Assembly: GCA_964536725.1 (NCBI GenBank)
Contig: CAZHYJ010000005.1
Coordinates: forward strand, 3,084-67,083
Reading direction: 5' to 3'
DNA from: an uncultured Gammaproteobacteria bacterium
GTDB taxonomy: Bacteria > Patescibacteriota > Patescibacteriia > Magasanikbacterales > GWA2-37-8
Length of the DNA: 64,000 nucleotides
The notes beneath the pieces are model-generated. The model was not told the DNA's origin, did no database searches, and worked only from the letters and a program-made list of their open reading frames with translations. Below, one piece after another: positions 18,364-57,414 of this stretch (the first letter of the stretch is position 1; every line of letters begins with the position of its first letter). The translations under genes and the position numbers were made by a program.

Positions 18364-18436
18364 GCGCCCATAGCTCAGGGGTTAGAGCACCGCCCTTATA
18401 AGGCGGGGGTCGATGGTTCGAAGCCATCTGGGCGCA
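18364..18436 (+). tRNA. tRNA-Ile with anticodon UAU (reads AUA)
   Basis: Hand-folded cloverleaf: acceptor gcgccca/tgggcgc, D stem gctc/gagc, anticodon stem ccgcc/ggcgg with loop CTTATAA (34-36 = TAT), T stem gatgg/ccatc with loop TTCGAAG, discriminator A. Body resembles a tRNA-Ile(GAU) sequence (…CTGATAAG… in the standard isoacceptor). No encoded CCA. Confidence 0.75.
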
Positions 18437-18438
18437 CT

Positions 18439-20621: not shown

Positions 20622-23432
20622 TTATAAATACTTTCCCGTCTGGGTTTTTTTGTTTTTCTTGATGTCAGCTGGCGTGCCTTCGGCAATTAATTGACCGCCG
20701 CCTTTGCCTCCCTCTGGGCCGAGTTCGATTACCCAATCGGAGTAGTTGATTACATCTACGTTGTGTTCGATTACCAAAACGGTATTCCCCTTCTCTACCA
20801 ATCGCTGTAACACACCCAAAAGATTTTGAATATCGGCAAAATGTAAACCAGTGGTTGGCTCATCTAAAATATACAAAGTCTTGCCCGTAGCTGAACGCAC
20901 CAACTCTGTCGCTAATTTTATTCTTTGCGCCTCACCACCCGACAATGTGGTCGCTGGCTGACCAAGGCGTAAATAACTCAAACCCACTGCTCGGAGCAGA
21001 TCCAGTTTGTCGGCCAAAGCTGGCACATCATGAAAAAATTTGTATGCTTCTTCCACTGTCATCTGCAAAACATCGGCGATATTTTTGTTGTGATGATGCA
21101 CCTCTAACGCTTCTTGGTTATAGCGCGAACCATTACATTCGTTACACACTACAAACACATCCGCTAAAAATTGCATCGGGATACGAACATAACCCTCACC
21201 GGCACAAGCCTCACATCGTCCACCACCTTTAACATTGAAACTAAACTTACCCGCATCATACCCGCGTAAGCGCGCCTCTTGCAAATTGGAAAACAGATCA
21301 CGGATTAAAGTAAAGATACCGGTATAGGTAGCAGGATTAGAACGTGGAGTCCGACCAATTGGTGCCTGATCTACAGCGATAACCTTATCAATATTGTCCA
21401 TTCCTTTTATCTCTTTGTGTTCGCCCGGTTCGTCTTTGGCACGATAAAACTTCTTGAGCAAGGCTTTAGACAAAACCTCACCAATCAGAGTAGATTTACC
21501 TGAACCAGAAACACCAGTAACACAAACCAATTTGCCGAGCGGAATACCGACAGTAATATTTTTTAAATTAAACGCTTTCGCCCCCACAATCGTCAAACTG
21601 TTTTTGTTTGGCTTTTTCAACTCACCTGCTAAATTCTTCTTACTGACCGGAGCTTTTTCCAAAGTAATTTTTTCTTGACCAGACAAAAACAGACCAGTTA
21701 AGGATGATTTATTTTTCTTCACCTCCGCCACCGTACCCGCCGCAATGATTTCTCCGCCATACACGCCCGCCCCTGGACCAACGTCGATTAGATAGTCGGC
21801 CGCTTCCATCATCGCCGCATCGTGCTCCACCACAATTACTGAATTACCCAAATCACGTAAAAACTTTAATGTTCCAATTAACTGCTGGTTGTCACGGGGA
21901 TGCAAACCCATCGAGGGTTCGTCCAATACATATATCACACCAGTTAAACCCGAAGACAACTGCGAAGACAACCGTACGCGTGTAATCTCACCACCAGACA
22001 AAGTATTTAGTGATCGGTCTAAACTTAAATATTCCAAACCTACTTTTTCTAGATTAGTTAAACGTGGTAATAATTCTTTAACAATCGGCGTAACGATCAC
22101 TGATTTAGCTTTGTCTACACCAATTTTTTTCAACACTACCTGATTTTCCGCCACACTCATACCAGACAAATCAGCGATACTGTATCCACCCAACTTTACC
22201 GCCAAAGATTCCGGACGTAACCGTTTGCCTTTACATTCTGGACACACCATCTCACGCATATATTGTTCTACTTCTTTGCGCACATAATCAGAGGTAGTCT
22301 GCAAATGACGCTCACGCAAATCATTTACCACACCAACAAAAGGAGCCGTTTTGTTTTCTATCGTATACACTTCCTTGCCCGTACCATACAAAATGGTCTC
22401 ACGCACATTTTCGGGTAAATTGTCCCAAGCAATATTTAAAGAAAAATGGTGCTTCTCAGCCACTACTGCCAACATCTTTTGATACCAAACTTGATTGCCG
22501 GTAATGCGAGTCCAGGGTTGAACTGCGCCTTCAGCCAAAGTTAAGCGTGGATTAGGGATAACCAAATTCACATCTACTTCCATGGTTAGACCTAAACCCG
22601 TACAACGCGGACAAGCACCATATGGACTATTAAAACTAAAACTACGCACATCCAATACTGGCAAAGTACGATCACATTTCGGACACAAACCAACAGTGGA
22701 AAAAAATTCTTCTGTTGTATTGTTTTTAGCAATCAAAAGACCGTTGCTAAATTCAAGTGCCAGATCAACTAATTTTGTCGGATTATCTTTTTTAATATCC
22801 TCAATCTTACCAACCATCACCGCAATATCATGAATTACTCCAGGTTTAAATGAGCGCTTGGCGAACTCCGGCAATTTCATCACTTCACCATTAATCATCA
22901 CCCATTCATATCCCGATTTTTCAATCTTGTCCAAAATTACTCGTTGCTCAACCTGACCACAACGCACCAGTGGAGAAAATATTGACACCGCCCCGCGCCG
23001 TGCCATCTTGCGCACATTCTCTGAAATTTCACCGGGAGTATTCGCCAAAACCCGCACCTTACATTCCGGACAATATTGTTCACCGGCGCGCGCAAAAAGT
23101 AAACGCAAATAATCGTAAATTTCTGTTACGGTTCCAACCGTCGAACGTGGATTTTGCGAAAATACTTTTTGATCAATGGCGATCGTCGGTGACAACCCAT
23201 CAATTCCATCCACATCCGGCTTGTCGCGCATTTCCATGAACTGGCGTGCATAGGCCGAGAGTGATTCAGCATAACGACGCTGTCCTTCAGCGTAGATAGT
23301 ATCAAATGCCAAAGAAGATTTCCCAGAACCAGACAAACCCGTGATTACCACGAGTTTGTTTTTTGGAATTTCGATGTTTACGTTTTTCAAATTGTGGACG
23401 CGCGCGCCACGAATAACAATTTTATCTGGCAT
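20622..23432 (-). CDS. uvrA: Excinuclease ABC subunit A (canonical, 936 aa, with insertion domain)
   Basis: Tandem ABC modules ([18 protein letters not shown]), three Zn modules, and about 125 aa between CPRCTGLG and CPECKGKRL. Confidence 0.93.
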
Positions 23433-24806: not shown

Positions 24807-25592
24807 CTATTTGCTTAATTTAGAAAAAAACGCTTCCCACGCTTCCCACGGCACCACACCTTCAATCTTTTCACCATTTACAAAGAATGTCGGCGTGCCA
24901 TTCACACCCAATTTAAACCCATCGGCATAGTCACGATTTATTTCCGTCACCATCGTTTGGTTATTAAAACAGTCGGTCAATTTTTTGTAATCCAACCCCG
25001 TCAGACCCGCTACTTCCTTTAGATCATTAGCAGAAATATTCTCGGGCAAACTATCCTGATTTGTATACAACCAATCATGCACTGGCCAAAACAACCCTTG
25101 ATTGTAAGCACAACCGGCCAACTCTGCCATTTTGTTGGCCCCTGGATGCAATGACTCCACGGGAAAATCACGCACAATCAATTTTATTTTTTGCCCATAT
25201 TTTGCCAGCACTCGTTTCATAATCGGCAAAGCTGTTTTACAATTTGGACATTTAAAATCAACAAACTCCACAATCACAATCTCAGCATTGGCATTCCCTA
25301 AAAATGGATCGTCAGTAGTTTCAATTTCAGTGCGCTTAACAAATGCCGGGCCAGTATTACTGCCTGAAGCACTAAATTCACCATATATTTTTTGCGTCAG
25401 TGCCGCTCCACGCCCCGCCTTAATCTCACGCCAGTAATAAAATGTCAGACCACCAAAACCCAAAATACCCGCCACCACCAACGCCCCCAACCCAACCAAA
25501 GCCACTTTCCAACCACTGTGATACCAATGTTTGACAGGAAAAGGTTGATTTTGCATATGTATAGTAATAGTTAGACAAGCATAGTATACCAT
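24807..25592 (-). CDS. DsbA-like thiol:disulfide oxidoreductase (thioredoxin fold, membrane-anchored)
   Basis: N-terminal TM, CxxC active site (FKCPNCK), DsbA-like length. Encoded 1 nt upstream of the Cys-rich protein. Confidence 0.75.
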   Translation of the reverse strand: MVYYACLTITIHMQNQPFPVKHWYHSGWKVALVGLGALVVAGILGFGGLTFYYWREIKAGRGAALTQKIYGEFSASGSNTGPAFVKRTEIETTDDPFLGNANAEIVIVEFVDFKCPNCKTALPIMKRVLAKYGQKIKLIVRDFPVESLHPGANKMAELAGCAYNQGLFWPVHDWLYTNQDSLPENISANDLKEVAGLTGLDYKKLTDCFNNQTMVTEINRDYADGFKLGVNGTPTFFVNGEKIEGVVPWEAWEAFFSKLSK

Positions 25593-28035: not shown

Positions 28036-28148
28036 GTGAAATTTGTGTGTTTGGTATTTTTTGAGCGGGTTATGAAGCCCACGGCTTCATCCTTTCATCC
28101 TCGCGGATGAAAAAAGCGAAAAAATTACCAAACGCACAAATTTCACAT
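28036..28148 (+). repeat. Structured palindromic element, copy A of a 3-member family (possible cis-regulatory RNA or MITE), in the RNase J leader
   Basis: Outer stem gtgaaatttgtgtgtttggta / taccaaacgcacaaatttcac, conserved core TTTTTTGAGCGGGTTATG, hairpin atgaagcc-cac-ggcttcat, hairpin catcc-tcgc-ggatg, then AAAAAAGCGAAAAAATTA. Ends 14 nt before the rnj ATG. Confidence 0.7.
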
Positions 28149-31148: not shown

Positions 31149-31155
31149 CCCCTTG

Positions 31156-31672
31156 TTCATTATTGGTAATCGCTCCCAAGTAATTGGGAAGAGGAAAGTC
31201 CGAACATCTCCAACGCAAGTTGGGAAAAAGACAGTGGGTAACGCCCACCCCCTAACCTGCAAAGTGTTAGGGCGGGAAAGCGGCACAGAGACAATACTAC
31301 TTTGTCCGCCGAAGCCTTGGCGAAGGAGGATCCAACCGACCCACCTCCGCTAAAGCTACGGCGGGCAAGGGAAAGGTGAAAAGCGCATGGAGGTTTTGGT
31401 TCTAGATCAAAGCTACTATGCCCCATCCACAGCAATGTGGAATGGTGCCAAGCCCTGTCTGATGCAAGAGCAGCCTTGCAACTGGAATATCTGGTTACAT
31501 GGAAAAGTTCGCTCGCGTTGATTCCGTTGGTAACAACGGGACAAGATAAATGATTACCTCCTGTTAAAAAAGCCAAGGCCAAAAGATACCGAGAAATCCA
31601 ATACGCGGAAAGTAGCGGTGTAAAATGGTTCGGCTCAACAACAGAAGACAAAATTCGGCTTATAATAATGAA
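31156..31672 (+). ncRNA. rnpB: RNase P RNA (bacterial type A-like), apparently enlarged
   Basis: Conserved blocks AGAGGAAAGTCCG (P4 5' strand), GGGTAACGCC-like, GGGAAAGGTGAAA, GCCAAAAGATACC, ACAGAAGACAAAATTCGGCTTA (P4 3' strand / CR-V). P1 pairs tcattatt with aataatga. Ends are approximate. The spacing between the conserved blocks is about 470 nt, against about 300 nt in E. coli M1 RNA. Confidence 0.85.
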
Positions 31673-31675
31673 ACT

Positions 31676-31706
31676 AAAAATCCGACCTTAATTGGTCGGA
31701 TTTTTT
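31676..31706. terminator. Intrinsic terminator after rnpB (possibly bidirectional)
   Basis: Stem aaaaatccgacc/ggtcggatttttt. The stop of the minus-strand ORF 31688-32047 lies inside the hairpin. Confidence 0.7.
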
Positions 31707-34681: not shown

Positions 34682-34860
34682 AAAACAATAAAATAGCCAC
34701 AGTTACCTAGCGAAGTTTTGCTAAAAAAATAATAAGTTTTTAGTAAAATATCATTGCTTGAGGCCTCGCGGCCGAGTTATGATATTTTACGTAAGAAAAC
34801 TTATTATTTTTTTCAAAACGTAGCGCGGTAACTGTGGTTATTTTATTGTTTTTTATCAAT
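34682..34860. repeat. Long (~180 bp) near-perfect palindrome filling the gap between convergent gene stops, with a GAGGCCTCGCGGCCGAG core
   Basis: Left arm aaaaacaataaaatagccacagttacc...aaaaaaataataagtttt pairs with right arm aaaacttattattttttt...ggtaactgtggttattttattgtttttt. Inner stem gtaaaatatcat/atgatattttac encloses gaggcctcgcggccgag. The same GC core occurs in element copy C (39391-39497). Confidence 0.65.
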
Positions 34861-36103
34861 TAAACCCCAGAAAAGAAGTCACCACCAACGCCACCGTCGC
34901 TGCAATAATACCCAAAATCGTTAACCAAGCGATAATATTACCAATCGGCTTGTTGGTATGCTCCCCCATAATCCGCTTGTCATTTATTATCTTCATCACA
35001 AAAATCAAGATAAACGGCAATAAAATACCGTTAATATCTTGCGACCAAACCATGATTTTAATCAAAGAAATTCCCGGAATTAAGACCATTAATGCCGGGA
35101 TAAAAATAGTGAATAAAATAATGCTGTAAAATATTTTTCCATTCTCCCAAGTCGTATCAAATCCTGACTCCCAACCAAAAGCCTCACAAATTGCATAGGC
35201 AGTGGCCGTGGGTAAGATAAAAGCACCAAGCATCGAAGCCACAAACAAACCGAAGGCAAATAAAAATTGTGCTAAATCACCCGCTAACGGTCGCAAGGCC
35301 TGCGCTACATCTGATACATTATCTATACGAATGCCGTGTTTATATAAAGTAGCAGCCGTACCAATGATGATAAAGAAACTGACAATATTCGTAATAAAGG
35401 CACCGATAAACACCTCAACTTTTTCCGTTTTATAGTGTTTAATTTCCAACCCCTTGTCCACGACATATGACTGGATAAAAAACTGCCCCCATGGCGTAAT
35501 AGTTGTGCCAATTACGGCGATCATCATTAAAAGAAAGGGGGCGTTCCATTCTAATGTCGGCTTAAACATATCTTTCACTGCCGCACCAAAATCTGGGCCG
35601 ACCACAAACCCGTTAATGATGTAGACGATGTAGAAAAAAGAAAATACCAAAAATATTTTTTGTGTGGTTTTAAACGAGCCTTTGTACAGAATAAACCAAA
35701 CCACCAAAGCGGAAATCGGAACGGATAAATATTTACTAACCCCAATCAGAGAAAAAGAAGAAGCCACACCGGCAAATTCGGCGGTGACAGTACCGATATT
35801 GGCCACCAACATCAACAACATCGCTAACGTTGTCAATCGCACCCCAAAACTTTCACGGATAATACCGGCCAAACCCTGACGCGTAACAATACCAATACGC
35901 ACGCCCATCTCCTGAGTAACTGCTAAAGCAAAAGTAATTAAAAGCAACACCCACAACATCTTCGTACCAAAGTGGGCACCAGCAATCGAGTAGGTGGTAA
36001 TTCCACCGGCATCATTATCCGCGTTCGCCGCAATAATACCGGGACCAATCACTCCTAAAAAAAAGACAATTTTGACCCACCAATGACGAAGTTTTCCACG
36101 CAT
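34856..36103 (-). CDS. Nramp-family divalent metal (Mn2+/Fe2+) transporter
   Basis: GPGIIAANADNDAGGITTYS corresponds to the Nramp GPG...DPGN region. About 11 TM helices, 415 aa. Confidence 0.8.
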   Translation of the reverse strand: MRGKLRHWWVKIVFFLGVIGPGIIAANADNDAGGITTYSIAGAHFGTKMLWVLLLITFALAVTQEMGVRIGIVTRQGLAGIIRESFGVRLTTLAMLLMLVANIGTVTAEFAGVASSFSLIGVSKYLSVPISALVVWFILYKGSFKTTQKIFLVFSFFYIVYIINGFVVGPDFGAAVKDMFKPTLEWNAPFLLMMIAVIGTTITPWGQFFIQSYVVDKGLEIKHYKTEKVEVFIGAFITNIVSFFIIIGTAATLYKHGIRIDNVSDVAQALRPLAGDLAQFLFAFGLFVASMLGAFILPTATAYAICEAFGWESGFDTTWENGKIFYSIILFTIFIPALMVLIPGISLIKIMVWSQDINGILLPFILIFVMKIINDKRIMGEHTNKPIGNIIAWLTILGIIAATVALVVTSFLGFN

Positions 36104-36108
36104 ATATT

Positions 36109-37326
36109 TTAAGCTTGTGGCACTAGATGACGCATCACATCATCAATCGTCACCATACCCAACATTCTTTTTTCGTCATCCAACACGACCGCAGTATACA
36201 AATCATATTTTGTCATCACCTTGATTACATCTTCAATATCCTGACCCACTCGCAAGATTGAACTACTTGGAAATGTTTTTAACAACTCTTTAATTTTTTT
36301 ATCTGCATCCGAAACCAACAGCCAACGCAAAGAAATCGCTCCTAAAAATTTATCTTCATCATCCAAGACATAGACATAAAGCACCGAACGCAAAGTTGGG
36401 GACAACTTTTTAACTTCCGCCACCGCCTCTTTAACCACCCACTCTGGTCGCACACGAATATACTCTGAAGTCATCAAACCACCCGCGGTATCGTCCTCGT
36501 ATTTAATCAACTTTTCAATCTTTTTTGCTTTTTGATTTTGCAAGTAAGACAAGAAAATGCGCGCCTCTTCCTTTGGCATCGTTTTCAACAAGTCCACGAT
36601 TTCATCAGTCGACATTTGACCCAAGATACTGGACATTTTTTCTGGACCCAAATATTTTACCAACACTTTCTGTAGATGGGGATCAACTTCTTCCAACACC
36701 TTCGCCGCCGATTTGGCGTCCAAGTTGATAACCAACTGACTACCCGCTTTAACATTCAAATCTTCAATAACATTAGCCAAATCTGCTGGATGCAGACGGT
36801 TCAAGTTTTTCGCTGCCGTATCTAGTTTCAAAATACCACGTACTGGTTGCGTGTGACGCCAATCAATCAAATTCACCTTTAACCAATTACCAAAATCTAT
36901 CCATTCCAAACCCATCCGACGCAACAACCCTTTGGTACTCACATCAATCCCCACAACACTCATTTTTTCCTTAAAAATGTTAAGACGTAAATCATTAACA
37001 CGCACCAAACGTGCGCCCGCCACATCGACAATCTGCTCATCCATTACATCACGCTTCAAATATACCCAACCACTATCGGTGATTTCCGACGTAGTCGATA
37101 TTTTTTTGATTGGAGTTTTTAGAAAAATAAAACGCCGGCTAAAATTGCCGACGAAAGAGTATGGTATCAAAATATTATCACCTGTTTCTTTACTTTCTAT
37201 TACCAAAAACTCTAGAGGTTGATATTCAGAAGCTTTGGAACTAATCAAAATATCTTTTAATCGTCCCACCACTTCATCGGCGCTGTCTTTAACTTTATGA
37301 TTTAGGAGCTCGCTTAAGTATGGCAT
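36109..37326 (-). CDS. Soluble MgtE-N-like plus CBS-pair regulatory-domain protein with no transmembrane channel module
   Basis: N-terminal PRC-barrel-like region, a helical MgtE_N-like middle, a C-terminal CBS pair (YVYVLDDEDKFLGAISLRWLL; VVLDDEKRMLGMVTIDDVM), no TM segments. Its stop lies 5 nt upstream of the Nramp start. Confidence 0.6.
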   Translation of the reverse strand: MPYLSELLNHKVKDSADEVVGRLKDILISSKASEYQPLEFLVIESKETGDNILIPYSFVGNFSRRFIFLKTPIKKISTTSEITDSGWVYLKRDVMDEQIVDVAGARLVRVNDLRLNIFKEKMSVVGIDVSTKGLLRRMGLEWIDFGNWLKVNLIDWRHTQPVRGILKLDTAAKNLNRLHPADLANVIEDLNVKAGSQLVINLDAKSAAKVLEEVDPHLQKVLVKYLGPEKMSSILGQMSTDEIVDLLKTMPKEEARIFLSYLQNQKAKKIEKLIKYEDDTAGGLMTSEYIRVRPEWVVKEAVAEVKKLSPTLRSVLYVYVLDDEDKFLGAISLRWLLVSDADKKIKELLKTFPSSSILRVGQDIEDVIKVMTKYDLYTAVVLDDEKRMLGMVTIDDVMRHLVPQA

Positions 37327-37530
37327 AAAAGTATTAGTTAGACGCCAATATTATATACCAAAAAATGAAAAAAAACAATCTAAAATAAAAAAGAAACAAC
37401 CGAGTGATTGTTTTTTAAATGAGAAAGGCGGTGGGAGGGCGACGCATCTTTCTGAATCCGACATAGCTGTCAGCTCACAGAAAAATATTGCGTCGCCCTT
37501 GCCTTATGGTGGGTGGAGCCGAGGTGGTCG

Positions 37531-37953
37531 TCACTTGGTGAACGGCCGCTCCCGTGGCGGCGCGGGTACGGACGGCTGAACGGCGGGGAACCCCGGGGCG
37601 AGACAGAAGATCTCTCCGCGCAGCCCGCCGGCTTCGTCGCTTGAGTACGCGACGCGGATCTCGTACCCCGGGGGGCAGATCCACTGCGAGGGCACCGGCT
37701 TGCCGGCGACGTCCGTCGCACGACACACCATCCCCACACCGCCCGCACCTCCTTCGTCATGGCAGCTCATCACGGCCTCCGAACGGACCACCACCGACGG
37801 CGTCGTTCGAGAGGACGACGTCCGAAGGGGGGGAAGCTCCTCGTCGTGTTCGCCGGCGACGATCGGCTTTCCGAAAGCCCCGCCACACCACGCCACGAGC
37901 ACGACGATCCCCACAGCCACCAGCACCGCAACCTTCTTCGATCCTTCCGACAT
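37531..37953 (-). CDS. Small secreted Cys-containing hypothetical protein on a GC-rich island
   Basis: Within about 560 bp of roughly 65-70% GC. GGAGG lies 7 nt before the ATG. Signal or TM segment VAVLVAVGIVVLVAWCGGAFG. A GC-rich stem (gggcgacgca...tgcgtcgccc) lies downstream. Other-frame ORFs here are Arg-rich GC artefacts. Confidence 0.5.
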   Translation of the reverse strand: MSEGSKKVAVLVAVGIVVLVAWCGGAFGKPIVAGEHDEELPPLRTSSSRTTPSVVVRSEAVMSCHDEGGAGGVGMVCRATDVAGKPVPSQWICPPGYEIRVAYSSDEAGGLRGEIFCLAPGFPAVQPSVPAPPRERPFTK

Positions 37954-38111
37954 ACCGTTTGCCTCCTGGCAAATCAGCCCACCAATTTGGGCATTGTACC
38001 GAACAAAATACTTCATAAATATTCTGATCGGTAAAATCCCCAAAAACACCATAAGTAACAGCTAAAGATAGCAAACTTTTGCCTTTTTGTCAATATACTG
38101 TTAAAATCAGA

Positions 38112-38219
38112 GTAGAAGTTACACGTTTGGTATTTTTTGAGCGGGTTATGCGCCAAGGCACATCCTTTCGCCCTCGCGGGCGAAAAAAGCGAAAAAATTA
38201 CCAAACGTGTAACTTCTAC
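38112..38219 (+). repeat. Structured palindromic element, copy B, in the GT4 gene leader
   Basis: Outer stem gtagaagttacacgtttggta / taccaaacgtgtaacttctac (perfect), core TTTTTTGAGCGGGTTATG, hairpin 1 atgcgcc-aa-ggcacat, hairpin 2 cgccc-tcgc-gggcg, AAAAAAGCGAAAAAATTA. Ends 8 nt before the ATG at 38228. Confidence 0.7.
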
Positions 38220-38227
38220 GAAACCAT

Positions 38228-39331
38228 ATGAAAATCGGCATCGACGCCCGCATGTATGGCCCTGCGCAAGGCGGCATTGGGCGATATATCGAACAATTAA
38301 TTAAGCAACTACAAAAAATTGACCAAAACAATCAATATATTTTGTTTTTACGTAAAAGCAATTTTGACGAATGCGAAATCACCAATTCAAATTTTAAAAA
38401 AGTATTAGCCGACATTCCCTGGTACAGTCTGAAAGAACAAACCGACTTTTGTAAGATAATCAAAAAAGAAAATATTGACCTGATGCACTTCCCCCATTGG
38501 AACGTGCCGCTGTTTTATCGTGGTAAATTTGTCGTCACCATCCACGATCTGATCATGTACCATTTTCCTCGCACCGAGGCTTCCACCCACGGACCAATTG
38601 TGTACTGGTTAAAAGACAAACTTCATCGTCTCATCTTATCCTCCGCCGCCAAGCGCGCTCAAGCCGTTATCGCCACCAGCGAGTTTACCAAAAACGACAT
38701 TGTTAAAGAATTAAAAATCAATCCAGAAAAAATTACCGTTACCTACCAAGCTCCATTTTCCCAGACTACCTCCATTGAATCACTCCCGACCGAAGTGAAG
38801 AAACCATACGCTTTGTATGTTGGTGCCGGATACCCACACAAAAATCTCCCTGCACTGTTGTGTGCCTGGAAAAAAATTGAAGGGATAAACTCCGAACTTA
38901 ACTTGGTGCTGGCTGGACGAAAGAATTTCTTCTATGATCAACTAACCAATTCCGTTGAATTTAAAAACTGCCAACGGATACAATATGTGTCCAACCCAAC
39001 TGACCCACAGCTCGAAACACTCTATCAAAACGCTGACCTCTTCGTTTTTCCTTCACTTTATGAAGGCTTTGGCCTACCACCACTCGAGGCCATGCTCCGC
39101 AATATACCCGTTGTATCTTCGAACACTTCTTGTCTCCAAGAAATTTTAGGCAACGCCGTTTGGTATTTTGACCCAACAGACACCGAAGACATGGCACGCA
39201 AAATTTTGATGACTTTTGACAACACTGATCTCCGCGACACTCTCCAAAAATCCGGTGTCGAACTACTAAAAAAATACTCTTGGGAGAAACTTACTTATGA
39301 AACACTTCACACTTATCAAAAAAGTGGATAA
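38228..39331 (+). CDS. GT4-family glycosyltransferase
   Basis: GT-B fold with C-terminal EGFGLPPLEAMLRNIPVVSS motif. Confidence 0.85.
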   Translation: MKIGIDARMYGPAQGGIGRYIEQLIKQLQKIDQNNQYILFLRKSNFDECEITNSNFKKVLADIPWYSLKEQTDFCKIIKKENIDLMHFPHWNVPLFYRGKFVVTIHDLIMYHFPRTEASTHGPIVYWLKDKLHRLILSSAAKRAQAVIATSEFTKNDIVKELKINPEKITVTYQAPFSQTTSIESLPTEVKKPYALYVGAGYPHKNLPALLCAWKKIEGINSELNLVLAGRKNFFYDQLTNSVEFKNCQRIQYVSNPTDPQLETLYQNADLFVFPSLYEGFGLPPLEAMLRNIPVVSSNTSCLQEILGNAVWYFDPTDTEDMARKILMTFDNTDLRDTLQKSGVELLKKYSWEKLTYETLHTYQKSG

Positions 39332-39390
39332 CTTCCCAGAAAAACAATGCCAAAAGTTGTAAATTGATGTATAATAATGATAACGAAAAA

Positions 39391-39497
39391 GAAATTACGC
39401 GTTTGATATTTTTTGAGCGGGTTATGAAGTCCACAGACTTCATCCCTGAGGCCTCGCGGCCGAGGAAAGTGAAAAAATTATCAAACACGTAATTTCT
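39391..39497 (+). repeat. Structured palindromic element, copy C, in the leader of the large surface protein gene
   Basis: Outer stem gaaattacgcgtttgata / tatcaaacacgtaatttc, core TTTTTTGAGCGGGTTATG, hairpin 1 atgaagtc-caca-gacttcat (compensatory relative to copy A), hairpin 2 cctcg-cggc-cgagg within gaggcctcgcggccgagg, then GAAAGTGAAAAAATTA. Confidence 0.7.
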
Positions 39498-39514: not shown

Positions 39515-42052
39515 TTGGTTAAAATGGCAAAGGCAAAAAAACGCCTACAAGTGCGCCGTTGCGCGGTCTGTAACAAGGTGGGACACAACAAATCCACCTG
39601 CCCAAAATACCTCGCAACACTCAAACCAGCAGATCATCCTCGCACGGTTAATTTTTTTGTTCATCACGTTCAACATTCCCCCGCTCAATCACCGCATGTC
39701 ATTGATTTAAAAAGAGAAACCTCAAGTCATTGGAACAACGTGGAAACCGTATCACCTACTGAATCCACCAACCCACTATATCATTTTTATCACGAGGCAA
39801 AATCCGAAGTGGCACAACCAAACCAAAGTCTTTTTTCTGCCCCACTACAAAATGCCGGGCGACCGGAAATGATTGTAGAAGAAAAAACTGTTGAACAGAA
39901 AAAAGTAAAATCATTACCCCAAAAAACAAAACGTCAATTTACTAACCCCTTTAAACTAATCGGCGGAAAAGTCAAAAATACCCACACACAAATTTCCAAC
40001 AAAATCAAAAACAGCCTTACCACTACCAATGATGCAGTTGTTAATACAAAAAATAATTTAAAAAAAGCGCTCCAACCAAATTTGAAAAAGATGGCTTGGG
40101 CAATTGCACTAATGATATTAGCAACCATCGTCCCTGGACCAACTTGGGGATATTATCAAAATCTAAAACACACTACCGCCAACATCGCCGCCGATGGTGC
40201 CGCCGGTTTTATGTCCCTTCAAGATTCCACGACCGCCTTGATGCAAGCCAACATGCCATTGGCACAGGCATCCATCTCCGAAGCGCTAAGCCGTTTTGAT
40301 AGTGCGGTCACCACCATGGAAACAAAAAATAAATTTCTCCAGAGTTTTGCTTCAGCATTACCCTTTATCGGTGACGAAGTTTCTAGCCGACAAAAATTAG
40401 TACTTGCCGGACAACAACTCACATTAGGTAACACATACTTACTCAAAGGCCTAACTGAAAGCCAAAACGCTCCCTCCTCCACTCTCACCGCGCGTGCCAA
40501 TATTATTATCACCCACTTACGAGCAGCCGTTCCCAACTATGAAAAAGCTTTAGAGAATTTGCAAGCCGTCAAACCCGATGTTTTACCTTTGCAATATCAA
40601 GGTGTGTTCAAAGATTACCGCACACTTTTTGCCTCCATCTTCACTGATTTAAAAAACTTGGCCAATTTAGGCGATGCTGTCCAAGAGGCGTTCGGCGGTA
40701 AAGGACTACGCCGTTATTTATTAATCTTCCAAAACGTCAGCGAGATTCGTGCGACTGGTGGTTTCATGGGTAGCTTCGCCATTCTCACTGTGAAAGATGG
40801 TGAAATTATTAATCTAGAAGTCCCCCCAAATGGTACCTATGATTTAAAAAAACAACTGGACATCTACGTCGAGCCACCTCGTCCCATGTTACTATCCAAT
40901 CGCCGTTGGGAATTCCAAGACGCCAATTGGTTCCCTGATTTCCCGGCTAGTGCCGAAAAAATTCTTTGGTTCTATCAACACAGTCGCAATGAAACCGCTG
41001 ATGGTGTGATTGCAATCAACTCCACTGTTTTGGAAAGAATTTTAGGAGTAATCGGCCCCGTGACTGACGAGAAGCGCGGCTTGGTTTTAACCCAAGAGAA
41101 TGCGATCAACACGATCCAACAAAAAGTAGAAACCTGGGACGCAGAGAAAAAAGATTATCGACCAAAACAGATTATCACCGACCTCTCCCAAACCTTCTTG
41201 GAATATTTTAAAAACATCGAACCACAAAATCTTTTACCACTGTTAGTAAACTTACAAGAATCGCTTGGACAAAAAGAAGTCCAGGTATATTTTACTGATT
41301 TCAAAACCGAAAGAGCCATCAAAGATTTTGGTTGGGGCGGACAAATTCTCAACACCAATGCCAATCAAGATTACTTGATGGTAGTAAACACCAACATCCA
41401 AGGACAGAAAACTGACGCCAACATCAAACAGGTTATCAGCCACCAAGCTGTGATTGCGGATGACGGTTCAATCACCGATACCGTGACGATTGCTCGCACC
41501 CACACTGGCATAAACGACGGTAGTTTGTATGGTGGAACCAATATCGACTACATTCGTCTGTATGTCCCACAGGGCACTGAACTAATCTCTGCCAACGGTT
41601 TTACCTGGCCTGAAGAAAAATATTTCCGCGCACCAGATAGCTGGACCAAAAAAGATGCATTTTTGGCAGAGATGGAAAAAGAAATTAAAATCGATGCCCA
41701 AAGCGGCACGCGTATCACGAACGAATTTAACAAAACAGCTTTCGGCAACTGGATAATCACCGAGCCGGGGCAAACTTCGCAGATTGAATTTGTCTATCGT
41801 ATCCCAAGCAATGTATTTTCGACTGAAAAACAATCTGATAAAGTCCAGAAAAAAACTGCACGTTACCAACTAATCACTCAAAGACAGTCTGGTTCAGAAA
41901 CTAGTTTTGAAAGTCAGATAATTTTACCGAATAATTTAACACCGGTTTGGAAAGATGGTCTTGAAACTGAAGTGGCCGCCAATGGCATGGTGATTGCCCC
42001 ACAACAATTGAAGAGTGACCGAATCTGGAGCTTGGTGGCTGAACAAAAGTAA
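39515..42052 (+). CDS. Large membrane-anchored extracytoplasmic hypothetical protein with an N-terminal Zn-ribbon-like motif (probable start ATG 39524)
   Basis: RRCAVCNKVGHNKSTCPKY gives a CxxC..H..C knuckle. One TM (WAIALMILATIVPGPTWGYY) and about 620 aa outside. No catalytic motif recognised. Confidence 0.5.
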   Translation: MVKMAKAKKRLQVRRCAVCNKVGHNKSTCPKYLATLKPADHPRTVNFFVHHVQHSPAQSPHVIDLKRETSSHWNNVETVSPTESTNPLYHFYHEAKSEVAQPNQSLFSAPLQNAGRPEMIVEEKTVEQKKVKSLPQKTKRQFTNPFKLIGGKVKNTHTQISNKIKNSLTTTNDAVVNTKNNLKKALQPNLKKMAWAIALMILATIVPGPTWGYYQNLKHTTANIAADGAAGFMSLQDSTTALMQANMPLAQASISEALSRFDSAVTTMETKNKFLQSFASALPFIGDEVSSRQKLVLAGQQLTLGNTYLLKGLTESQNAPSSTLTARANIIITHLRAAVPNYEKALENLQAVKPDVLPLQYQGVFKDYRTLFASIFTDLKNLANLGDAVQEAFGGKGLRRYLLIFQNVSEIRATGGFMGSFAILTVKDGEIINLEVPPNGTYDLKKQLDIYVEPPRPMLLSNRRWEFQDANWFPDFPASAEKILWFYQHSRNETADGVIAINSTVLERILGVIGPVTDEKRGLVLTQENAINTIQQKVETWDAEKKDYRPKQIITDLSQTFLEYFKNIEPQNLLPLLVNLQESLGQKEVQVYFTDFKTERAIKDFGWGGQILNTNANQDYLMVVNTNIQGQKTDANIKQVISHQAVIADDGSITDTVTIARTHTGINDGSLYGGTNIDYIRLYVPQGTELISANGFTWPEEKYFRAPDSWTKKDAFLAEMEKEIKIDAQSGTRITNEFNKTAFGNWIITEPGQTSQIEFVYRIPSNVFSTEKQSDKVQKKTARYQLITQRQSGSETSFESQIILPNNLTPVWKDGLETEVAANGMVIAPQQLKSDRIWSLVAEQK

Positions 42053-48199: not shown

Positions 48200-50497
48200 A
48201 TGCCGGACGAAGCGGCACAGCCAGTAGTCGACAACGACCGAGAAACAGCAAACACAGAGCAACCAAAAGTTGGTAGTGTTAAGGTTGAAGGAGACGATAC
48301 GAAAGTGGAAAAACAAGGTAACGTATACCATGTTAATTTTGGTGGAGAAAAAGAAGTGGCAACTACACAAACCAATAAATCTCCAGTGACGACTACAGAA
48401 ACCAATGAATCTCCAAAAAACAACGTGAGCCCTTTACCACAACCACAATCGCCAACACCAACACCCGCGGCACAAACACTACCTCCGACACACACACCGG
48501 CCAATACTGGTAATACAAAACCAAACAATTCTCAAATAAATAAACAAAATCCAGCAACCAGATCGACCAAACCAGATATAGACAAAAACGCTCCTTCCTC
48601 AGCACCGACTGCCAAAATTCCTTCAACACAAACAAACGGCCAACCTTCAGCAAACCCAGAAGGCGCCACTACAGGCGAAAACCAATCACCGGCTACTCTT
48701 CCTGAACAAAACGAGGGAGAGCAAGGCACACCAACCGAGCAAGCACAAACAGCAACAACACCACCAACCAGCCAACTAAGCCCAGAACAACAAAGAGAAG
48801 CCGGCCAAGAAATGAAAAAAGACTCCTTAGGAAAAAGAATTTCTGATGCTGGAAACAAGCTGGCAGATGTTGGACAAAAAATTGCAGATACTCCAGAAAA
48901 TATTAGAAAAAAAGGCAGGGCCATAAAAAATAAAGCTAAGGCTTTAAAAAAAGGGGCTGCTGCCGCTATTAAAAACCCCAAACAATTCGGGAAAAATTTG
49001 GGAAAAAACATGGGCAAGAAAATTGCCCAATCAGGTGTACGCAACCTAGATAAAATGGCAAAAGGCGCACAAAACAAATTAAAAGACGCTGCCAATAGCC
49101 TGCGTACTAGCGGCATGAAAAAAAGAAAATTATTAAAAGATATAAAAAAAATCGACAAAGAATTAGACGAATTACAAGGCAGTCTTACTAGTTTAAAAGC
49201 TTCAAAAGCACTATTAGCACTAAAATTTTTCTTCCCCGGTCTATACAGCAAAATTGCCGGTGTAACAGAAATAAAGAGCGGTGCATCACAAAAAGTGAAA
49301 GTGGCCAAGCTTGAAGCCCAAGCCACGGCACTCAAATCCGCCAAAGCTGCATTACAAACAGCGCAGTTTGCGGCTGCGGTATTAGACGCCTTGGTGTCCA
49401 TCGGAGAGATGATTGCCTATACATTATCTACGATTTTGCTACCGGTTTTAATTATTCTCTTATCGCCACTATTACTAATGATATTAGTACCAATATATCT
49501 TACACTCGGTGGAAAGTTCTCGAGAATTTTTAAACAATTAGTAACGCAAATAAACAAAGTCCTCGAACCATTAGAAAAAACATTAGTTATAGAAAAAAAG
49601 AAATTAGCACTAATGAACAATAAAAAAGACAAACGCGCTGAAATAACAAAGGTAGGAACCGAAGAAGAGATCCAAAGAAAAAGAGAACAGGAACCAGAGG
49701 CGCAACCAGAACCAAGTAAACCAGAAGAGAAAAAACCTGAAGAAACAGGCGCAAACACAGAAGAAACAAAAGCAACAGAACCAGAAAAAACTCCTGAGAC
49801 AACACAATCACAATCATCAGAAGGAAATGCCCCGCAAGAAGCTCCTGAAGCACAACCAGCAGAAACAGCAAATCCAACAGAAACAGAAACGACTACACAA
49901 CCACAGACCGGAGCCGAAGAAAGTGCAGAAGGAAAAGAGGCGGAAACAACAGAGACACCCAAACCTGAAACACAGGACATTACAAAACCAACGGCACCAA
50001 AACCCGAAGTACAAAAACCAACTGCACCACCAACCGAGGTACAAAAACCAGAAGAACAATCACAAAATAACAACGCAACAAAAGAAGGCGGTCCGGAAAC
50101 AGTCGAACAACCAACACAAAACCAAACACCTGGGAAAACTGCACCACAACCAATGCAAACACCAGCGGCTCAACAACAAAATCAAGTCGCGGCACCGCAA
50201 CCTTCCGTCCAACCAGCTCCACCACCACCTGCAGCAGAGCCGACCGAACAAGCACAGACAGCAGAAGGTCAGCCAGCGAGTGCAGAAGAAAAACCAGCCG
50301 CACCACCAACTGAAGAACAAAAACCAGAAACAACCGAACCACAAGAAACCGAGGTGCAAACCGACGGTCGATCGATTAAAGAACCAAAAATAGAAATGAA
50401 AGTGGACGTAAAAGTAAAAACCAAAGGCAAAGATGGCAAACAGTCAAAAATCAAAGTCGACGAAGAAAAAGGTGAAAACATAAAATTAGCCGCTTAA
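48200..50497 (+). CDS. Low-complexity Pro/Thr/Gln/Glu-rich protein with a central basic amphipathic region and two TM helices
   Basis: 765-aa ORF starting 2 nt after the clpC stop. Long PT/Q/E-rich tracts (PTAPKPEVQKPTAPPTEVQKPEEQ) and TM segments IAYTLSTILLPVLIILLSPLLLMILVPIYLTLG. Antisense ORFs here are low-complexity artefacts. Confidence 0.55.
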   Translation: MPDEAAQPVVDNDRETANTEQPKVGSVKVEGDDTKVEKQGNVYHVNFGGEKEVATTQTNKSPVTTTETNESPKNNVSPLPQPQSPTPTPAAQTLPPTHTPANTGNTKPNNSQINKQNPATRSTKPDIDKNAPSSAPTAKIPSTQTNGQPSANPEGATTGENQSPATLPEQNEGEQGTPTEQAQTATTPPTSQLSPEQQREAGQEMKKDSLGKRISDAGNKLADVGQKIADTPENIRKKGRAIKNKAKALKKGAAAAIKNPKQFGKNLGKNMGKKIAQSGVRNLDKMAKGAQNKLKDAANSLRTSGMKKRKLLKDIKKIDKELDELQGSLTSLKASKALLALKFFFPGLYSKIAGVTEIKSGASQKVKVAKLEAQATALKSAKAALQTAQFAAAVLDALVSIGEMIAYTLSTILLPVLIILLSPLLLMILVPIYLTLGGKFSRIFKQLVTQINKVLEPLEKTLVIEKKKLALMNNKKDKRAEITKVGTEEEIQRKREQEPEAQPEPSKPEEKKPEETGANTEETKATEPEKTPETTQSQSSEGNAPQEAPEAQPAETANPTETETTTQPQTGAEESAEGKEAETTETPKPETQDITKPTAPKPEVQKPTAPPTEVQKPEEQSQNNNATKEGGPETVEQPTQNQTPGKTAPQPMQTPAAQQQNQVAAPQPSVQPAPPPPAAEPTEQAQTAEGQPASAEEKPAAPPTEEQKPETTEPQETEVQTDGRSIKEPKIEMKVDVKVKTKGKDGKQSKIKVDEEKGENIKLAA

Positions 50498-51760: not shown

Positions 51761-52414
51761 ATGAAACACATCCACAAATTCTATTTGATACTCGGTCTTT
51801 CAGTCTTGGTGCTCGCGAGTATTTTTTTCTGGCAGGCAAAGAAAGCGATTAACATCCGCGTCACTCAAAATGAAACACCCTTAATCAGTGAACAAATCTA
51901 TAATATTTCCCTTGCTGATGATGAAGCGGTGCGCGGAAATCCAGGGGCAGCCATAACCATCATAGAATATTTGGATTTAAACTGCACCGATTGTGTAGAT
52001 AAATACAACGAACTCAACAACTTGGTTGACAAAAATCCGGCCAAATTACGCCTGGTATTAAAATTAGCGGACACTAGCGGACTTTTTGCTCATAACTCAC
52101 AATATGTGAACACTGCTGCATATTGTGCCAACCAACAAAAACGCTATTGGTTATTTTTAGACTCTTTAATGACCAAAGAAAAACGTTGGAGTGAAGAGAC
52201 TATTTTGGCCGCTGCCAGTGAAGCAAAAATCAACCTGACTACTTGGAACAAATGTCGCGAAAACGAAACCACAATCGCCGCAGTAAATTTATCTTTACAA
52301 CTTGCCAAAGAACTGGGTGTAAACACTTCGCCTACCATATTTGTCAACAATCAAAAAATTGACCCTCAAACAGAGGTCAGTTTTACCGAAATAATTAACA
52401 AATTTATCCAGTAA
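51761..52414 (+). CDS. DsbA-like thiol:disulfide oxidoreductase
   Basis: N-terminal TM, CxxC (LDLNCTDCVDKY), thioredoxin-fold length, and an extra Cys pair (YCANQQ...KCREN). Immediately upstream of the two Cys-rich paralogs. Confidence 0.7.
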   Translation: MKHIHKFYLILGLSVLVLASIFFWQAKKAINIRVTQNETPLISEQIYNISLADDEAVRGNPGAAITIIEYLDLNCTDCVDKYNELNNLVDKNPAKLRLVLKLADTSGLFAHNSQYVNTAAYCANQQKRYWLFLDSLMTKEKRWSEETILAAASEAKINLTTWNKCRENETTIAAVNLSLQLAKELGVNTSPTIFVNNQKIDPQTEVSFTEIINKFIQ

Positions 52415-57080: not shown

Positions 57081-57192
57081 AGATAGGACCGACGACGGAC
57101 ACATCCAGTTTGTTGCGCTACGTAAACGCATCAAACTTTTTGTATTCGTCGTCGGGTATGGGCGGAAAAATGCGGGATACACGGGGAAAGGA

Positions 57193-57414
57193 TCAGAACG
57201 AGAGCCGACCCACTACCGGAACGTACTTGAACGTCCGGACGGTAGCTGCCGTCGGAACGACGAGACGTACCCGACGCGGACGACAGCGCGTGACCGGAGC
57301 TGCCCAGCCACAGCGCAGCATCTTCTCCTCGTCCTTGCTGCGGATCTTCCGCATCAAGGACTTCCTGGCACGCCGCTCCAGACACTCCTGCTTCACCTTG
57401 TTGCAAAACCCCAT
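57193..57414 (-). CDS. Small basic hypothetical ORF on a moderately GC-rich island (uncertain)
   Basis: About 350 bp of roughly 58% GC. 73-aa Arg/Lys-rich ORF (MGFCNKVKQECLERRARKSLMRKIRSKDEEKMLRCG...) with a G-rich stretch before the ATG. This could equally be a noncoding element. Confidence 0.25.
   Translation of the reverse strand: MGFCNKVKQECLERRARKSLMRKIRSKDEEKMLRCGWAAPVTRCRPRRVRLVVPTAATVRTFKYVPVVGRLSF

What the first reader, a model, noticed from the sequence alone, without database searches (positions are those of the whole stretch)
37430..37990. ~560-bp island of very high GC (about 65-70%) carrying a small secreted Cys-containing gene with a strong GGAGG ribosome-binding site
The local composition contrasts sharply with the AT-rich flanks. 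The minus-strand gene (37531-37953) has GGAGG 7 nt upstream of its ATG and a GC-rich terminator-like stem downstream. The native housekeeping genes in this window lack SD motifs (for example tcgaatATG before secE and ttaatttATG before rnj). Composition and a different translation-initiation signal both point to recent horizontal acquisition from a high-GC donor. If the organism is an epibiont, this could be its host. The less interesting alternative is a chimeric assembly or contaminating read patch.
Basis: seen in the sequence. Interest (0 to 1): 0.6.

Follow-up and report, generated by a model that had tools for sequence, protein, structure and literature searches.

The report
Foreign high-GC gene islet, CPR bacterium
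A 575-bp GC-rich patch in an AT-rich genome of a candidate-phyla-radiation bacterium is a real, foreign-looking gene for a small exported cysteine protein; it sits in an intergenic slot that related genomes leave empty or fill with other GC-rich orphan genes, and it evolves far faster than its neighbours.

Summary
Window 37425-38000 is the only stretch above 70% GC in a 41.7% GC window. It holds one minus-strand gene (37531-37953, 140 aa) with GGAGG 8 nt before the ATG and a 64-nt hairpin after it. It is not an assembly artefact: four independent run assemblies reproduce both junctions at 100% identity.

Foreign origin is supported. GC3 is 0.80 against 0.40-0.45 in native genes. None of 44 native genes has an SD-like motif, while three of four high-GC ORFs do. 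Five relatives have an AT-rich spacer with no cassette at this site.

"Recent" acquisition is not supported. A sister lineage (about 8% flank divergence) carries a homologue in the same frame, with conserved promoter, leader, RBS and hairpin. The proteins are only 32-36% identical, against 98% for the neighbouring MgtE-like protein. Two other relatives carry unrelated high-GC orphan genes in the same slot.

No donor was found, so the host-donor idea is untested. A full HMMER scan of 1.84 billion proteins gave only that one homologue.

Best reading: an older horizontal acquisition at an insertion hotspot, encoding a fast-diversifying, membrane-anchored or secreted two-disulfide protein. The kind of event is known, the gene family is new, and interest is moderate.

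The parts
37380..38075 (-). Whole insertion relative to empty-site relatives (about 0.7 kb): AT-rich leader, GC-rich block and AT-rich terminator. Boundaries are good to about +/-10 nt.
   Evidence: Comparison of the GT4|MgtE spacers of the window, L008, L005 and L010 with the empty spacers of L012, L015, L016 and L017.
37425..38000 (-). GC-rich block (RBS region, coding sequence, long hairpin); 0.60-0.80 GC in 30-nt windows.
37531..37953 (-). Coding sequence of 140 aa. It has an N-terminal signal or anchor helix (residues 3-23), a disordered Pro/Ser/Thr linker (28-52), a four-strand beta domain with four conserved Cys (55-118), and a Pro-rich tail.
   Evidence: GC3 0.80; AlphaFold pLDDT 63; 70-81 over most of the beta domain; homologue P0004/L008 with the Cys conserved. 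The 173-aa upstream extension is not conserved in frame in L008, where the leader has indels.
37962..37966 (-). Shine-Dalgarno GGAGG, 8 nt before the ATG. TTTGCCAGGAGGCAA is identical in L008.
37954..38064 (-). 5' leader, about 110 nt and mostly AT-rich. It is 86% identical in L008 and absent from empty-site relatives.
38065..38093 (-). Sigma-70-like promoter TTGACA-17-TATCTT with a TG-extended -10, pointing at the island gene. The -35 region is shared with L005 and resembles the empty spacers.
37436..37499 (-). Long three-tier hairpin 3' of the coding sequence (outer stem GGGCGACGCAA/TGCGTCGCCC). It is conserved in L008, and its apical stem differs there but still pairs.
37385..37413 (-). AT-rich stem-loop (AAACAATC...GGTTGTTT) followed by a U-run; the likely intrinsic terminator. 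It is part of the insertion: present in L008 and L014, absent from empty sites.
36109..37326 (-). Downstream native neighbour: PRC-barrel / MgtE_N / CBS protein, with its own TATAAT promoter region conserved in all relatives.
38228..39331 (+). Divergent native neighbour: GT4 glycosyltransferase. Its promoter-like site TTGCCT-17-TAAAAT lies at 38079-38107.

Best explanation
The island is a genuine chromosomal insertion of about 0.7 kb in the spacer between two divergent native genes (GT4 and an MgtE_N/CBS gene). The genome is a Patescibacteria (CPR) genome.

Shown:
- The GC-rich part is a complete foreign-type gene unit: its own Shine-Dalgarno site, a coding sequence with GC3 of 0.80, and a strong 3' hairpin.
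- The insertion predates the split of at least three lineages that differ by 7-8% in flanking DNA.
- The leader, RBS and hairpin have stayed 86-95% identical between lineages, while the coding sequence has fallen to 32-36% amino-acid identity. The five Cys and a few motifs are kept.

Inferred:
- A sigma-70-like promoter at the GT4-proximal edge drives the gene.
- The source was a high-GC, SD-using organism or mobile element. The genome itself does not use SD.
- The divergence comes from diversifying selection combined with exchange of old, diverged alleles by recombination through the conserved flanks.
- The product is exported. It has an N-terminal signal or anchor helix, a disordered linker and a small beta domain that probably holds two disulfides. 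The genome encodes two DsbA-like oxidoreductases that could form them.
- The protein most likely acts at the cell surface in an antagonistic or recognition interaction, with the host cell, with phage or with competitors.
- The same spacer is a recurrent landing site. Related species carry unrelated high-GC orphan genes there or none. The window also holds at least three more small high-GC orphan ORFs, and one of them is a lineage-specific insertion.
For: Real and in place:
- Logan contigs from SRR11845635, SRR11845636, SRR11845626 and SRR27197514 match window 35786-38190 at 100% across both junctions.

Foreign signature:
- GC3 is 0.80 against 0.40-0.45 in MgtE, GT4, Nramp, UvrA and RecG.
- SD-like motifs occur before 0 of 44 native genes and before 3 of 4 high-GC ORFs.

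Insertion polarity:
- L012, L015, L016 and L017 have GT4 and MgtE 108-112 nt apart with no cassette.
- The more distant L020 has an AT-rich 353-nt spacer.
- A neighbour-joining tree of MgtE DNA puts the window, L014 and L008 in one clade, beside an L012 (empty) plus L005 (type B) clade. An all-empty L015-L017 clade and L010 (type C) lie further out.

Shared frame, hypervariable coding sequence:
- L008 has the same promoter, leader, RBS and hairpin.
- Flanking genes are 91-93.5% identical in DNA and the leader 86%, but the coding sequence is about 50% identical in DNA and 32-36% in protein.
- MgtE is 97.7% identical in protein.
- At amino-acid-conserved fourfold sites 12 of 27 third bases differ (44%), against 22% of all MgtE third positions.

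The gene is coding and constrained:
- The only true homologue in 1.84 billion proteins is P0004 (E 1.3e-7; pairwise E 3e-16). It has the same length, the same AWC motif and the four domain Cys.

Hotspot:
- L005 carries a 192-aa orphan (GC 0.56) and L010 carries other ORFs with GC3 of 0.91 in the same slot. L011 has an IS there.

Same behaviour elsewhere in the window:
- Islet 59702-60630 is absent from the sister lineage (L019).
- In a 99.6% identical strain, 8 of 12 substitutions plus a codon indel fall within that islet's 675-nt gene.

Other support:
- DsbA-like genes lie at 24807-25592 and 51761-52414.
- The taxon follows from the names given to MgtE-like homologues: Buchanan-, Magasanik-, Gracili- and Peregrinibacteria, and 'Patescibacteria group'.
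Against: - No donor or any outside homologue was found for this gene, so foreign origin rests on composition, the SD signal and presence/absence alone.
- The second islet gene (59907-60581) is also an orphan: it has no homologue outside its own cluster in the 5.8-billion-protein search, and the phage, plasmid and IMG/VR searches gave nothing significant.
- None of the eight high-GC ORFs tested hits Pfam, NCBIfam, PHROGs or PADLOC at a meaningful level.
- Only two alleles are known, so selection was not tested formally. Relaxed constraint cannot be fully separated from positive selection.
- The 27-site synonymous comparison is small.
- Export, disulfides and surface function are inferred from sequence and a mediocre model (pLDDT 63).
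- Expression is not shown. Whether this organism's ribosome can use an SD is unknown, because there is no 16S rRNA in the window.
- There is no target-site duplication, recombinase or other trace of the insertion mechanism.
Confidence: 0.65

Rival explanations
1. One reading: a recent, single horizontal transfer from a high-GC donor that is the epibiont's host.
For: The foreign composition and SD are real. The organism is a CPR bacterium, a group in which epibiosis and DNA uptake are common (PMC12455944). A second islet (59702-60630) does look lineage-specific and therefore younger.
Against: The cassette frame is shared with lineages 7-8% divergent in flanking DNA, so it is not recent. No homologue exists in any high-GC organism among 1.84 billion representative proteins. 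All eight high-GC ORFs tested are orphans in the profile libraries, which fits mobile-element or very fast-evolving sources better than ordinary host chromosomal genes.
Confidence: 0.15
2. The coding sequence diverged in place from one ancestral copy, purely by accelerated point-mutation evolution (positive selection or loss of constraint), with no allele exchange.
For: The two alleles have the same position, frame and length, and conserved flanks. The Cys scaffold is kept.
Against: Third-base differences at conserved fourfold sites (44%) are about double the MgtE third-position value (22%). Selection on protein sequence alone does not produce that. Islet 2 shows eight substitutions packed into 80 nt in an otherwise 99.6% identical strain, which looks like a recombination tract. 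The island gene is invariant in four samples of the window strain, so there is no ongoing hypermutation.
Confidence: 0.25
3. Integron-like or other site-specific capture of promoterless cassettes at a dedicated expression site.
For: Three unrelated GC-rich genes sit in the same spacer downstream of a shared -35 region. Each is followed by a long imperfect hairpin near the 3' boundary of the insert.
Against: No integrase, transposase or reverse transcriptase was found among the 52 long ORFs of the 64-kb window that were scanned. The three hairpins differ in sequence. By eye I saw no RYYYAAC/GTTRRRY cores next to the window and L008 hairpin in the sequences; this was not a formal scan. There is one cassette per site and no array. 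The inserts carry their own unrelated AT-rich leaders.
Confidence: 0.05
4. Native gene whose GC content is an effect of amino-acid composition or RNA structure, not of transfer.
For: No donor was found. The gene sits in the same place in sister lineages.
Against: GC is highest at the third codon position (0.80), so it is not driven by amino acids. The gene is absent from five relatives. It carries an SD in a genome where 0 of 44 native genes have one.
Confidence: 0.04
5. Chimeric assembly or a contaminating read patch.
For: The composition break is sharp. Two JGI contigs end inside the island (L009 at 37537, L013 at 37559).
Against: Four assemblies of separate runs cross both junctions at 100% identity. 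A homologous allele sits in the same frame in another lineage. The block is embedded in a working promoter, RBS and terminator layout.
Confidence: 0.01

Closest known systems
Single-gene genomic islets at chromosomal integration hotspots (horizontally acquired orphan genes); HGT islands reported in Patescibacteria (PMC12455944)
   Same: Atypical GC and codon usage, presence/absence polymorphism among close relatives, different cargo at the same inter-gene position, and orphan cargo.
   Different: It is very small (one gene) and lies next to no tRNA, integrase or direct repeats. The cargo brings a Shine-Dalgarno site into a genome that otherwise shows none. The cargo coding sequence is hypervariable while its untranslated flanks are conserved.
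Integron gene cassettes
   Same: A short ORF with its own RBS, followed by a long imperfect hairpin and apparently read from a promoter at the edge of the site, with different cassettes in different genomes.
   Different: No IntI was found in 64 kb. I saw no attC core sites by eye. There is no cassette array, the hairpins are unrelated in sequence, and each insert has its own AT-rich leader.
Fast-evolving small disulfide-bonded secreted or surface proteins (effector-like, adhesin-like or bacteriocin-like)
   Same: Signal or anchor helix, a short Cys-scaffolded beta domain, extreme sequence divergence with the Cys spacing kept, and Pro-rich linkers.
   Different: There is no sequence or fold match to any such family. 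No partner, immunity or export genes lie beside it.
Diversity-generating retroelement targets
   Same: A hypervariable coding region between conserved flanks, in a phylum where I recall DGRs being common (own knowledge, not checked here).
   Different: No reverse transcriptase was found among the scanned ORFs, and a repeat search of the window found no second copy of the island that could act as a template repeat. Divergence covers the whole coding sequence with indels. There is no variation among four samples of the same strain.

Membership tests
Horizontally acquired genomic islet | Base composition and codon usage atypical for the genome | tested here: met
   GC is 0.68 and GC3 is 0.80, against 0.40-0.43 and 0.40-0.45 in five native genes. 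The peak is 4.9 sd above the window mean.
Horizontally acquired genomic islet | Patchy presence among close relatives, with an identifiable empty site | tested here: met
   Sites are empty in L012, L015, L016 and L017, and there is no cassette in L020. The site is occupied in the window and L008, and L014 holds the 3' end of the frame.
Horizontally acquired genomic islet | Identifiable donor lineage or homologues outside the recipient clade | tested here: not met
   Only the gene's own cluster and the L008 allele were found in 5.8 billion and 1.84 billion proteins. Nothing was found in phages, plasmids or IMG/VR.
Horizontally acquired genomic islet | Mobility hallmarks (integrase, tRNA target, flanking direct repeats) | tested here: not met
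   No recombinase was found among the scanned ORFs. The nearest tRNA genes are more than 9 kb away. No flanking direct repeat was seen.
Integron gene cassette | Adjacent IntI tyrosine recombinase with attI and Pc | tested here: not met
   No integrase domain was found in any scanned ORF of the 64-kb window. A promoter-like site exists.
Integron gene cassette | attC site with R''/R' core sequences and conserved extrahelical bases | tested here: not met
   A long hairpin is present. By eye I found no RYYYAAC...GTTRRRY cores at its ends in the sequences; this was not a formal scan. The L005 and L010 hairpins are unrelated in sequence.
DGR variable protein | Nearby reverse transcriptase and a template repeat differing at adenines | tested here: not met
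   There is no RT domain among the scanned ORFs and no second copy of the region in the window. The island is identical in four samples.
SpaA/Cna-B, CBM14 or Ig V-set domains (suggested by weak HMMER hits P0002, P0003, P0005) | Match to the Pfam model above threshold, or a fold match | tested here: not met
   The island protein has no Pfam hit at E<=0.01. The three hits are to three unrelated repeat proteins, with scores summed over 6-8 repeats. Foldseek against PDB gave a best E of 0.064 and TM of 0.2.
Sec-exported or lipoprotein class | N-terminal signal peptide; for lipoproteins a canonical lipobox [LVI][ASTVI][GAS]C | tested here: inconclusive
   An n-region and a 15-residue h-region are present, and a helix is predicted at residues 3-23. 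The conserved LAWC has Trp at -1, which does not fit the canonical lipobox. No signal-peptide predictor was available.
Known RNA families (rival: structured RNA rather than a gene) | Rfam covariance-model match | tested here: not met
   There was no hit at gathering score. Only chance-level hits (E>=0.075) occur in 37250-38300, and none lies in the GC-rich coding block or the long 3' hairpin.

The most novel reading that the evidence does not exclude
The GT4|MgtE spacer, and perhaps other spacers in this CPR clade, acts as a capture-and-expression slot. Promoterless, SD-bearing gene units taken up from a high-GC partner organism or its mobile elements would be repeatedly installed behind a resident promoter there. 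They would then be swapped and diversified as surface molecules of the epibiont-host interaction. If so, the cargo would be a molecular record of host identity for an uncultured CPR lineage.
Probability: 0.1. Interest if true: 0.8.

Novelty: new member of a known kind. Interest (0 to 1): 0.42.

Why it matters
CPR bacteria are mostly uncultured, and the hosts of most lineages are unknown. This clade shows small high-GC orphan genes at three of ten relatives' GT4|MgtE sites and at three or more other places in 64 kb. One of those other islets is shown to be a lineage-specific insertion.

These genes carry Shine-Dalgarno sites into a genome whose own genes show none, and the two examined in detail evolve much faster than their surroundings. 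That gives three concrete handles:
- where CPR bacteria get new genes from;
- whether SD-led mRNAs are translated in an SD-poor CPR organism;
- which exported proteins are under conflict-type selection.

As it stands, the event is an ordinary kind (a horizontally acquired islet at a hotspot) with an unknown donor and an unknown function.

Tried and rejected
- Donor and homologue searches all came back empty.
  - Word-indexed search of 5.8 billion proteins.
  - Full HMMER scan of 1.84 billion representatives.
  - tblastn against phages and plasmids.
  - IMG/VR scan with the two-allele alignment.
  - PDB sequence search.
  - Pfam, NCBIfam, PHROGs and PADLOC.
- The three other hits were rejected as artefacts of scores summed over repeats. 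They are P0002 (SpaA repeats), P0003 (CBM14 repeats) and P0005 (Ig V-set repeats). They belong to unrelated families, match different parts of the query, and the same proteins give 'significant' whole-protein scores to many unrelated Pfam models.
- DGR: rejected (no RT, no template repeat, no within-strain variation).
- Integron: rejected as membership (no IntI; no attC cores seen).
- Rfam: nothing at the island.
- The 173-aa upstream-extended ORF called by automatic annotation (P0001) was rejected as the true start. The extension is not kept in frame in L008, and the SD sits before the internal ATG.
- Looking for paper mentions of the run or sample accessions, to learn the habitat, found nothing.
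- No homology exists among the different high-GC ORFs, so they are not one family and there is no evidence for a single donor.

Full report
**1. The observation**

The window is 41.7% GC. For 150-nt windows the mean is 0.417 and the sd 0.064. Only one region exceeds 0.70: 37413-38015, with a peak of 0.733. A 30-nt profile places the GC-rich block at about 37425-38000.

The block contains a minus-strand ORF, 37531-37953, of 140 aa. GGAGG lies at 37962-37966, 8 nt before the ATG.

Downstream there is a 64-nt three-tier hairpin at 37436-37499. The 86-nt segment that contains it folds at about -41 kcal/mol (z -6.5). About 20 nt further on there is an AT-rich stem-loop with a U-run at 37385-37413.

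None of 44 long native ORFs has GGAG, GAGG or AGGA between -20 and -4, and their leaders are A/T-rich.

**2. Not an artefact**

The automatically called form of the protein (P0001, 173 aa) occurs on four Logan contigs from four sequencing runs: SRR11845635, SRR11845636, SRR11845626 and SRR27197514. All four match window 35786-38190 at 100% and cross both composition junctions. A second high-GC islet in the window is likewise reproduced with both junctions in SRR27197516 (L018, 99.6% identity).

**3. What organism**

The neighbouring genes are these:
- Nramp (34856-36103, -);
- a PRC/MgtE_N/CBS protein (36109-37326, -);
- GT4 (38228-39331, +);
- a DUF4012 protein (39515-42052, +).

Homologues of the MgtE-like protein that carry names are from Candidatus Buchanan-, Magasanik-, Gracili-, Peregrini- and Jacksonbacteria, and from 'Patescibacteria group'. 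The window is therefore a CPR/Patescibacteria chromosome. The rest of the window is ordinary housekeeping: UvrA (two copies), UvrB, GyrB, RecG, RNase J, NusG, L11, L19 and RNase P RNA.

**4. Foreign signature**

GC at codon positions 1/2/3 of the island gene is 0.69/0.56/0.80. MgtE, GT4, Nramp, UvrA and RecG have GC3 of 0.40-0.45. The excess is largest at the third position, so it is not a by-product of amino-acid content. The pattern GC3 > GC1 > GC2 is the one I would expect for a real coding frame from a high-GC genome (own knowledge).

The window has three further small high-GC ORFs:

| ORF | Strand | Length | GC measure |
|---|---|---|---|
| 13515-13832 | - | 105 aa | GC 0.57 |
| 57193-57414 | - | 73 aa | GC3 0.76 |
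| 59907-60581 | - | 224 aa | GC3 0.75 |

Three of the four high-GC ORFs have a clear SD: CAGGAGG, AAAGGAG and CGAGGAG. Against 0 of 44 native genes, my Fisher exact test gives about 2e-4.

**5. The slot in relatives**

I collected ten other loci that carry the MgtE-like gene.

| Locus | Source | State of the GT4\|MgtE spacer |
|---|---|---|
| L012 | SRR22388067 | Empty, 108-112 nt |
| L015 | SRR27197509 | Empty, 108-112 nt |
| L016 | SRR27197516 | Empty, 108-112 nt |
| L017 | ERZ15185865 | Empty, 108-112 nt |
| L020 (MgtE 67% aa) | SRR22388086 | AT-rich 353-nt spacer, no GC-rich insert |
| L005 | CAZHTA010000002.1 | Unrelated 192-aa ORF, GC 0.56 |
| L010 | Ga0172367 | Other ORFs, GC 0.64-0.66, GC3 0.91, running to the contig end |
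| L011 | Ga0233423 | IS transposase and a different upstream gene |
| L008 | SRR8925740 | Homologue of the island gene |
| L014 | SRR32414324 | Contig starts inside the AT-rich terminator that belongs to the insertion |

A neighbour-joining tree of MgtE DNA groups the window, L014 and L008 (7-8% apart). Beside them is an L012 (empty) plus L005 (type B) clade. An all-empty L015/L016/L017 clade and L010 (type C) lie further out.

The simplest reading is an ancestrally empty, AT-rich spacer with three independent insertions of different high-GC DNA. The conserved MgtE promoter region (about 53 nt before the ATG) and a TTGACA-like element next to GT4 bound the variable segment.

**6. The sister allele**

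In L008 the flanking genes are 91-93.5% identical in DNA to the window. The leader is 86% identical, and TTTGCCAGGAGGCAA and the long hairpin are conserved. Between the ATG and the hairpin, identity drops to about 50% in DNA. The proteins are 32% identical by BLASTP (E 3e-16) and 36% in the MAFFT alignment.

What is kept:
- the LAWC motif at the end of the hydrophobic helix;
- four Cys in the C-terminal domain;
- the motifs CRAxDxxGxPV, GYE and RG(x)3C.

MgtE over the same comparison is 97.7% identical in protein, with 22% third-position differences. At amino-acid-conserved fourfold sites of the island gene, 12 of 27 third bases differ (44%; 68% would be expected at saturation).

So the coding sequence is both far more changed at the protein level and roughly twice as diverged at silent sites as its flanks. 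I read this as old alleles exchanged through the conserved flanks, together with diversifying selection. Simple in-place acceleration remains a live alternative. The island is invariant in four samples of the window strain, so there is no ongoing hypermutation.

**7. The same behaviour at a second islet**

In the sister lineage (L019, same run as L008) the sequence jumps from window 60631 to 59701. About 0.93 kb containing the 224-aa gene is absent there, replaced by 13 nt and with no target duplication. That insertion is therefore specific to the window lineage.

In strain L018 (99.6% identical), 8 of 12 substitutions and a codon indel lie inside that 675-nt gene, and the 8 substitutions lie within about 80 nt.

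**8. The protein**

AlphaFold from the two-sequence alignment gives:
- a helix at residues 3-23;
- a disordered region at 28-52;
- four strands between 55 and 118;
- overall pLDDT of 63, with block means of 62-81 across the strand region.

There is no Foldseek hit in PDB (best E 0.064, TM 0.2). There is no PDB sequence hit and no hit in the family libraries.

The genome has two DsbA-like genes, so extracytoplasmic disulfide formation is plausible. I infer, but have not shown, an exported or membrane-anchored small two-disulfide domain. Its rate of change suggests a role in recognition or conflict at the cell surface.

**9. Expression layout**

A promoter-like site TTGACA-17-TATCTT (38093-38065, TG-extended) points at the island gene. 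TTGCCT-17-TAAAAT (38079-38107) points at GT4. The TTGACA element is shared with L005 and L008 and resembles the empty spacers.

**10. Donor**

None was found:
- the 5.8-billion-protein search returns only the gene's own cluster;
- the full scan of 1.84 billion representatives returns only P0004 as a credible relative;
- phages, plasmids and IMG/VR give nothing.

The second islet gene is equally orphan: only its own cluster in the 5.8-billion-protein search, and no significant hit in phages, plasmids or IMG/VR. None of the eight high-GC ORFs examined has a meaningful family hit, and they are unrelated to each other.

This argues against ordinary chromosomal genes of a well-sampled host. It fits either mobile-element or phage-type cargo, or genes that evolve too fast to be traced. 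HGT, genomic islands and competence genes in Patescibacteria are already described (PMC12455944).

**11. Verdict**

The island is real and foreign-looking, but it is not recent, and its donor is unknown. It is one instance of a recurrent pattern in this clade: small, SD-bearing, high-GC orphan genes inserted in intergenic spacers and diversifying quickly. The kind of event is known. The gene family and the hotspot are new, and the functional claim is inferential.

Noticed in passing
window 28036-28147, 38112-38219, 39390-39497 (+): A structured repeat of about 112 nt occurs in three copies. Each is on the + strand and ends roughly 8-20 nt before a + strand start codon (RNase J, GT4, DUF4012 gene). 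It has a long outer stem and two inner hairpins: 46 predicted pairs, nine with compensatory double changes, and conserved loops (TTTTTTGAGCGGGTTATG, CCTCGCGG). There is no Rfam match. The copy before GT4 is precisely absent in the sister lineage L008, so it is either a MITE-like mobile element or a dispensable leader RNA. Most metagenome contigs I recovered at this locus end or start inside the copy before GT4 (L001-L004, L006).
   Followed up: partly
window 59702-60630 (gene 59907-60581, -): A second high-GC islet (GC up to 0.65, GC3 0.75) with SD AAAGGAG encodes a 224-aa acidic orphan protein that has no homologue outside its own cluster. It is absent from the sister lineage (L019). In a 99.6% identical strain (L018), 8 of 12 substitutions and a codon indel fall inside this gene.
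   Followed up: partly
window 57127-57459 (ORF 57193-57414, -): A third high-GC patch (up to 0.67) just downstream of recG has a 73-aa basic ORF with four Cys (GC3 0.76). A G-rich purine tract precedes it. It has no meaningful family hit.
   Followed up: partly
window 13486-13837 (ORF 13515-13832, -): A fourth GC-elevated patch (up to 0.61) has a 105-aa very hydrophobic ORF preceded by GAGGAG. It has no significant family hit.
   Followed up: no
whole window: None of 44 long native ORFs has an SD-like motif upstream, and the leaders are A/T-rich. This CPR genome appears to initiate translation without SD.
   Followed up: partly
L005 5264-5842; L010 1-470: Related species carry unrelated GC-rich orphan ORFs in the same GT4|MgtE spacer: a 192-aa protein in L005 and two Cys-rich ORFs with GC3 of 0.91 in L010. 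Each is followed by its own long hairpin.
   Followed up: partly
L009 (starts at window 37537), L013 (starts at 37559): Two JGI contigs of the same strain (99.6% identical) end inside the 3' part of the island gene, although Logan assemblies run through it. The cause could be low coverage of GC-rich DNA or allele heterogeneity. It is unexplained.
   Followed up: no
window 31154-31678 (+): The RNase P RNA (bacterial type A, 138 bits) spans 525 nt against a 367-position model, so it carries large insertions. This explains the moderate GC bump at 31200-31456.
   Followed up: no
window 18364-18437 (+): A tRNA-Ile gene with anticodon TAT, which I recall being an uncommon way of reading AUA in bacteria.
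   Followed up: no
window 1991-4579 and 20622-23432 (-): Two UvrA paralogues lie 19 kb apart, and their 3' parts are about 71-81% identical in DNA.
   Followed up: no
window 24807-25592 (-), 51761-52414 (+): Two DsbA-like thioredoxin-fold genes indicate extracytoplasmic disulfide formation in this CPR organism.
   Followed up: no
window 48200-50497 (+): A 765-aa ORF with no Pfam match has a strongly A-rich strand bias (AT skew up to 0.69) and 46-nt imperfect repeats encoding Pro/Thr/Lys-rich segments. It is probably a repetitive surface protein.
   Followed up: no
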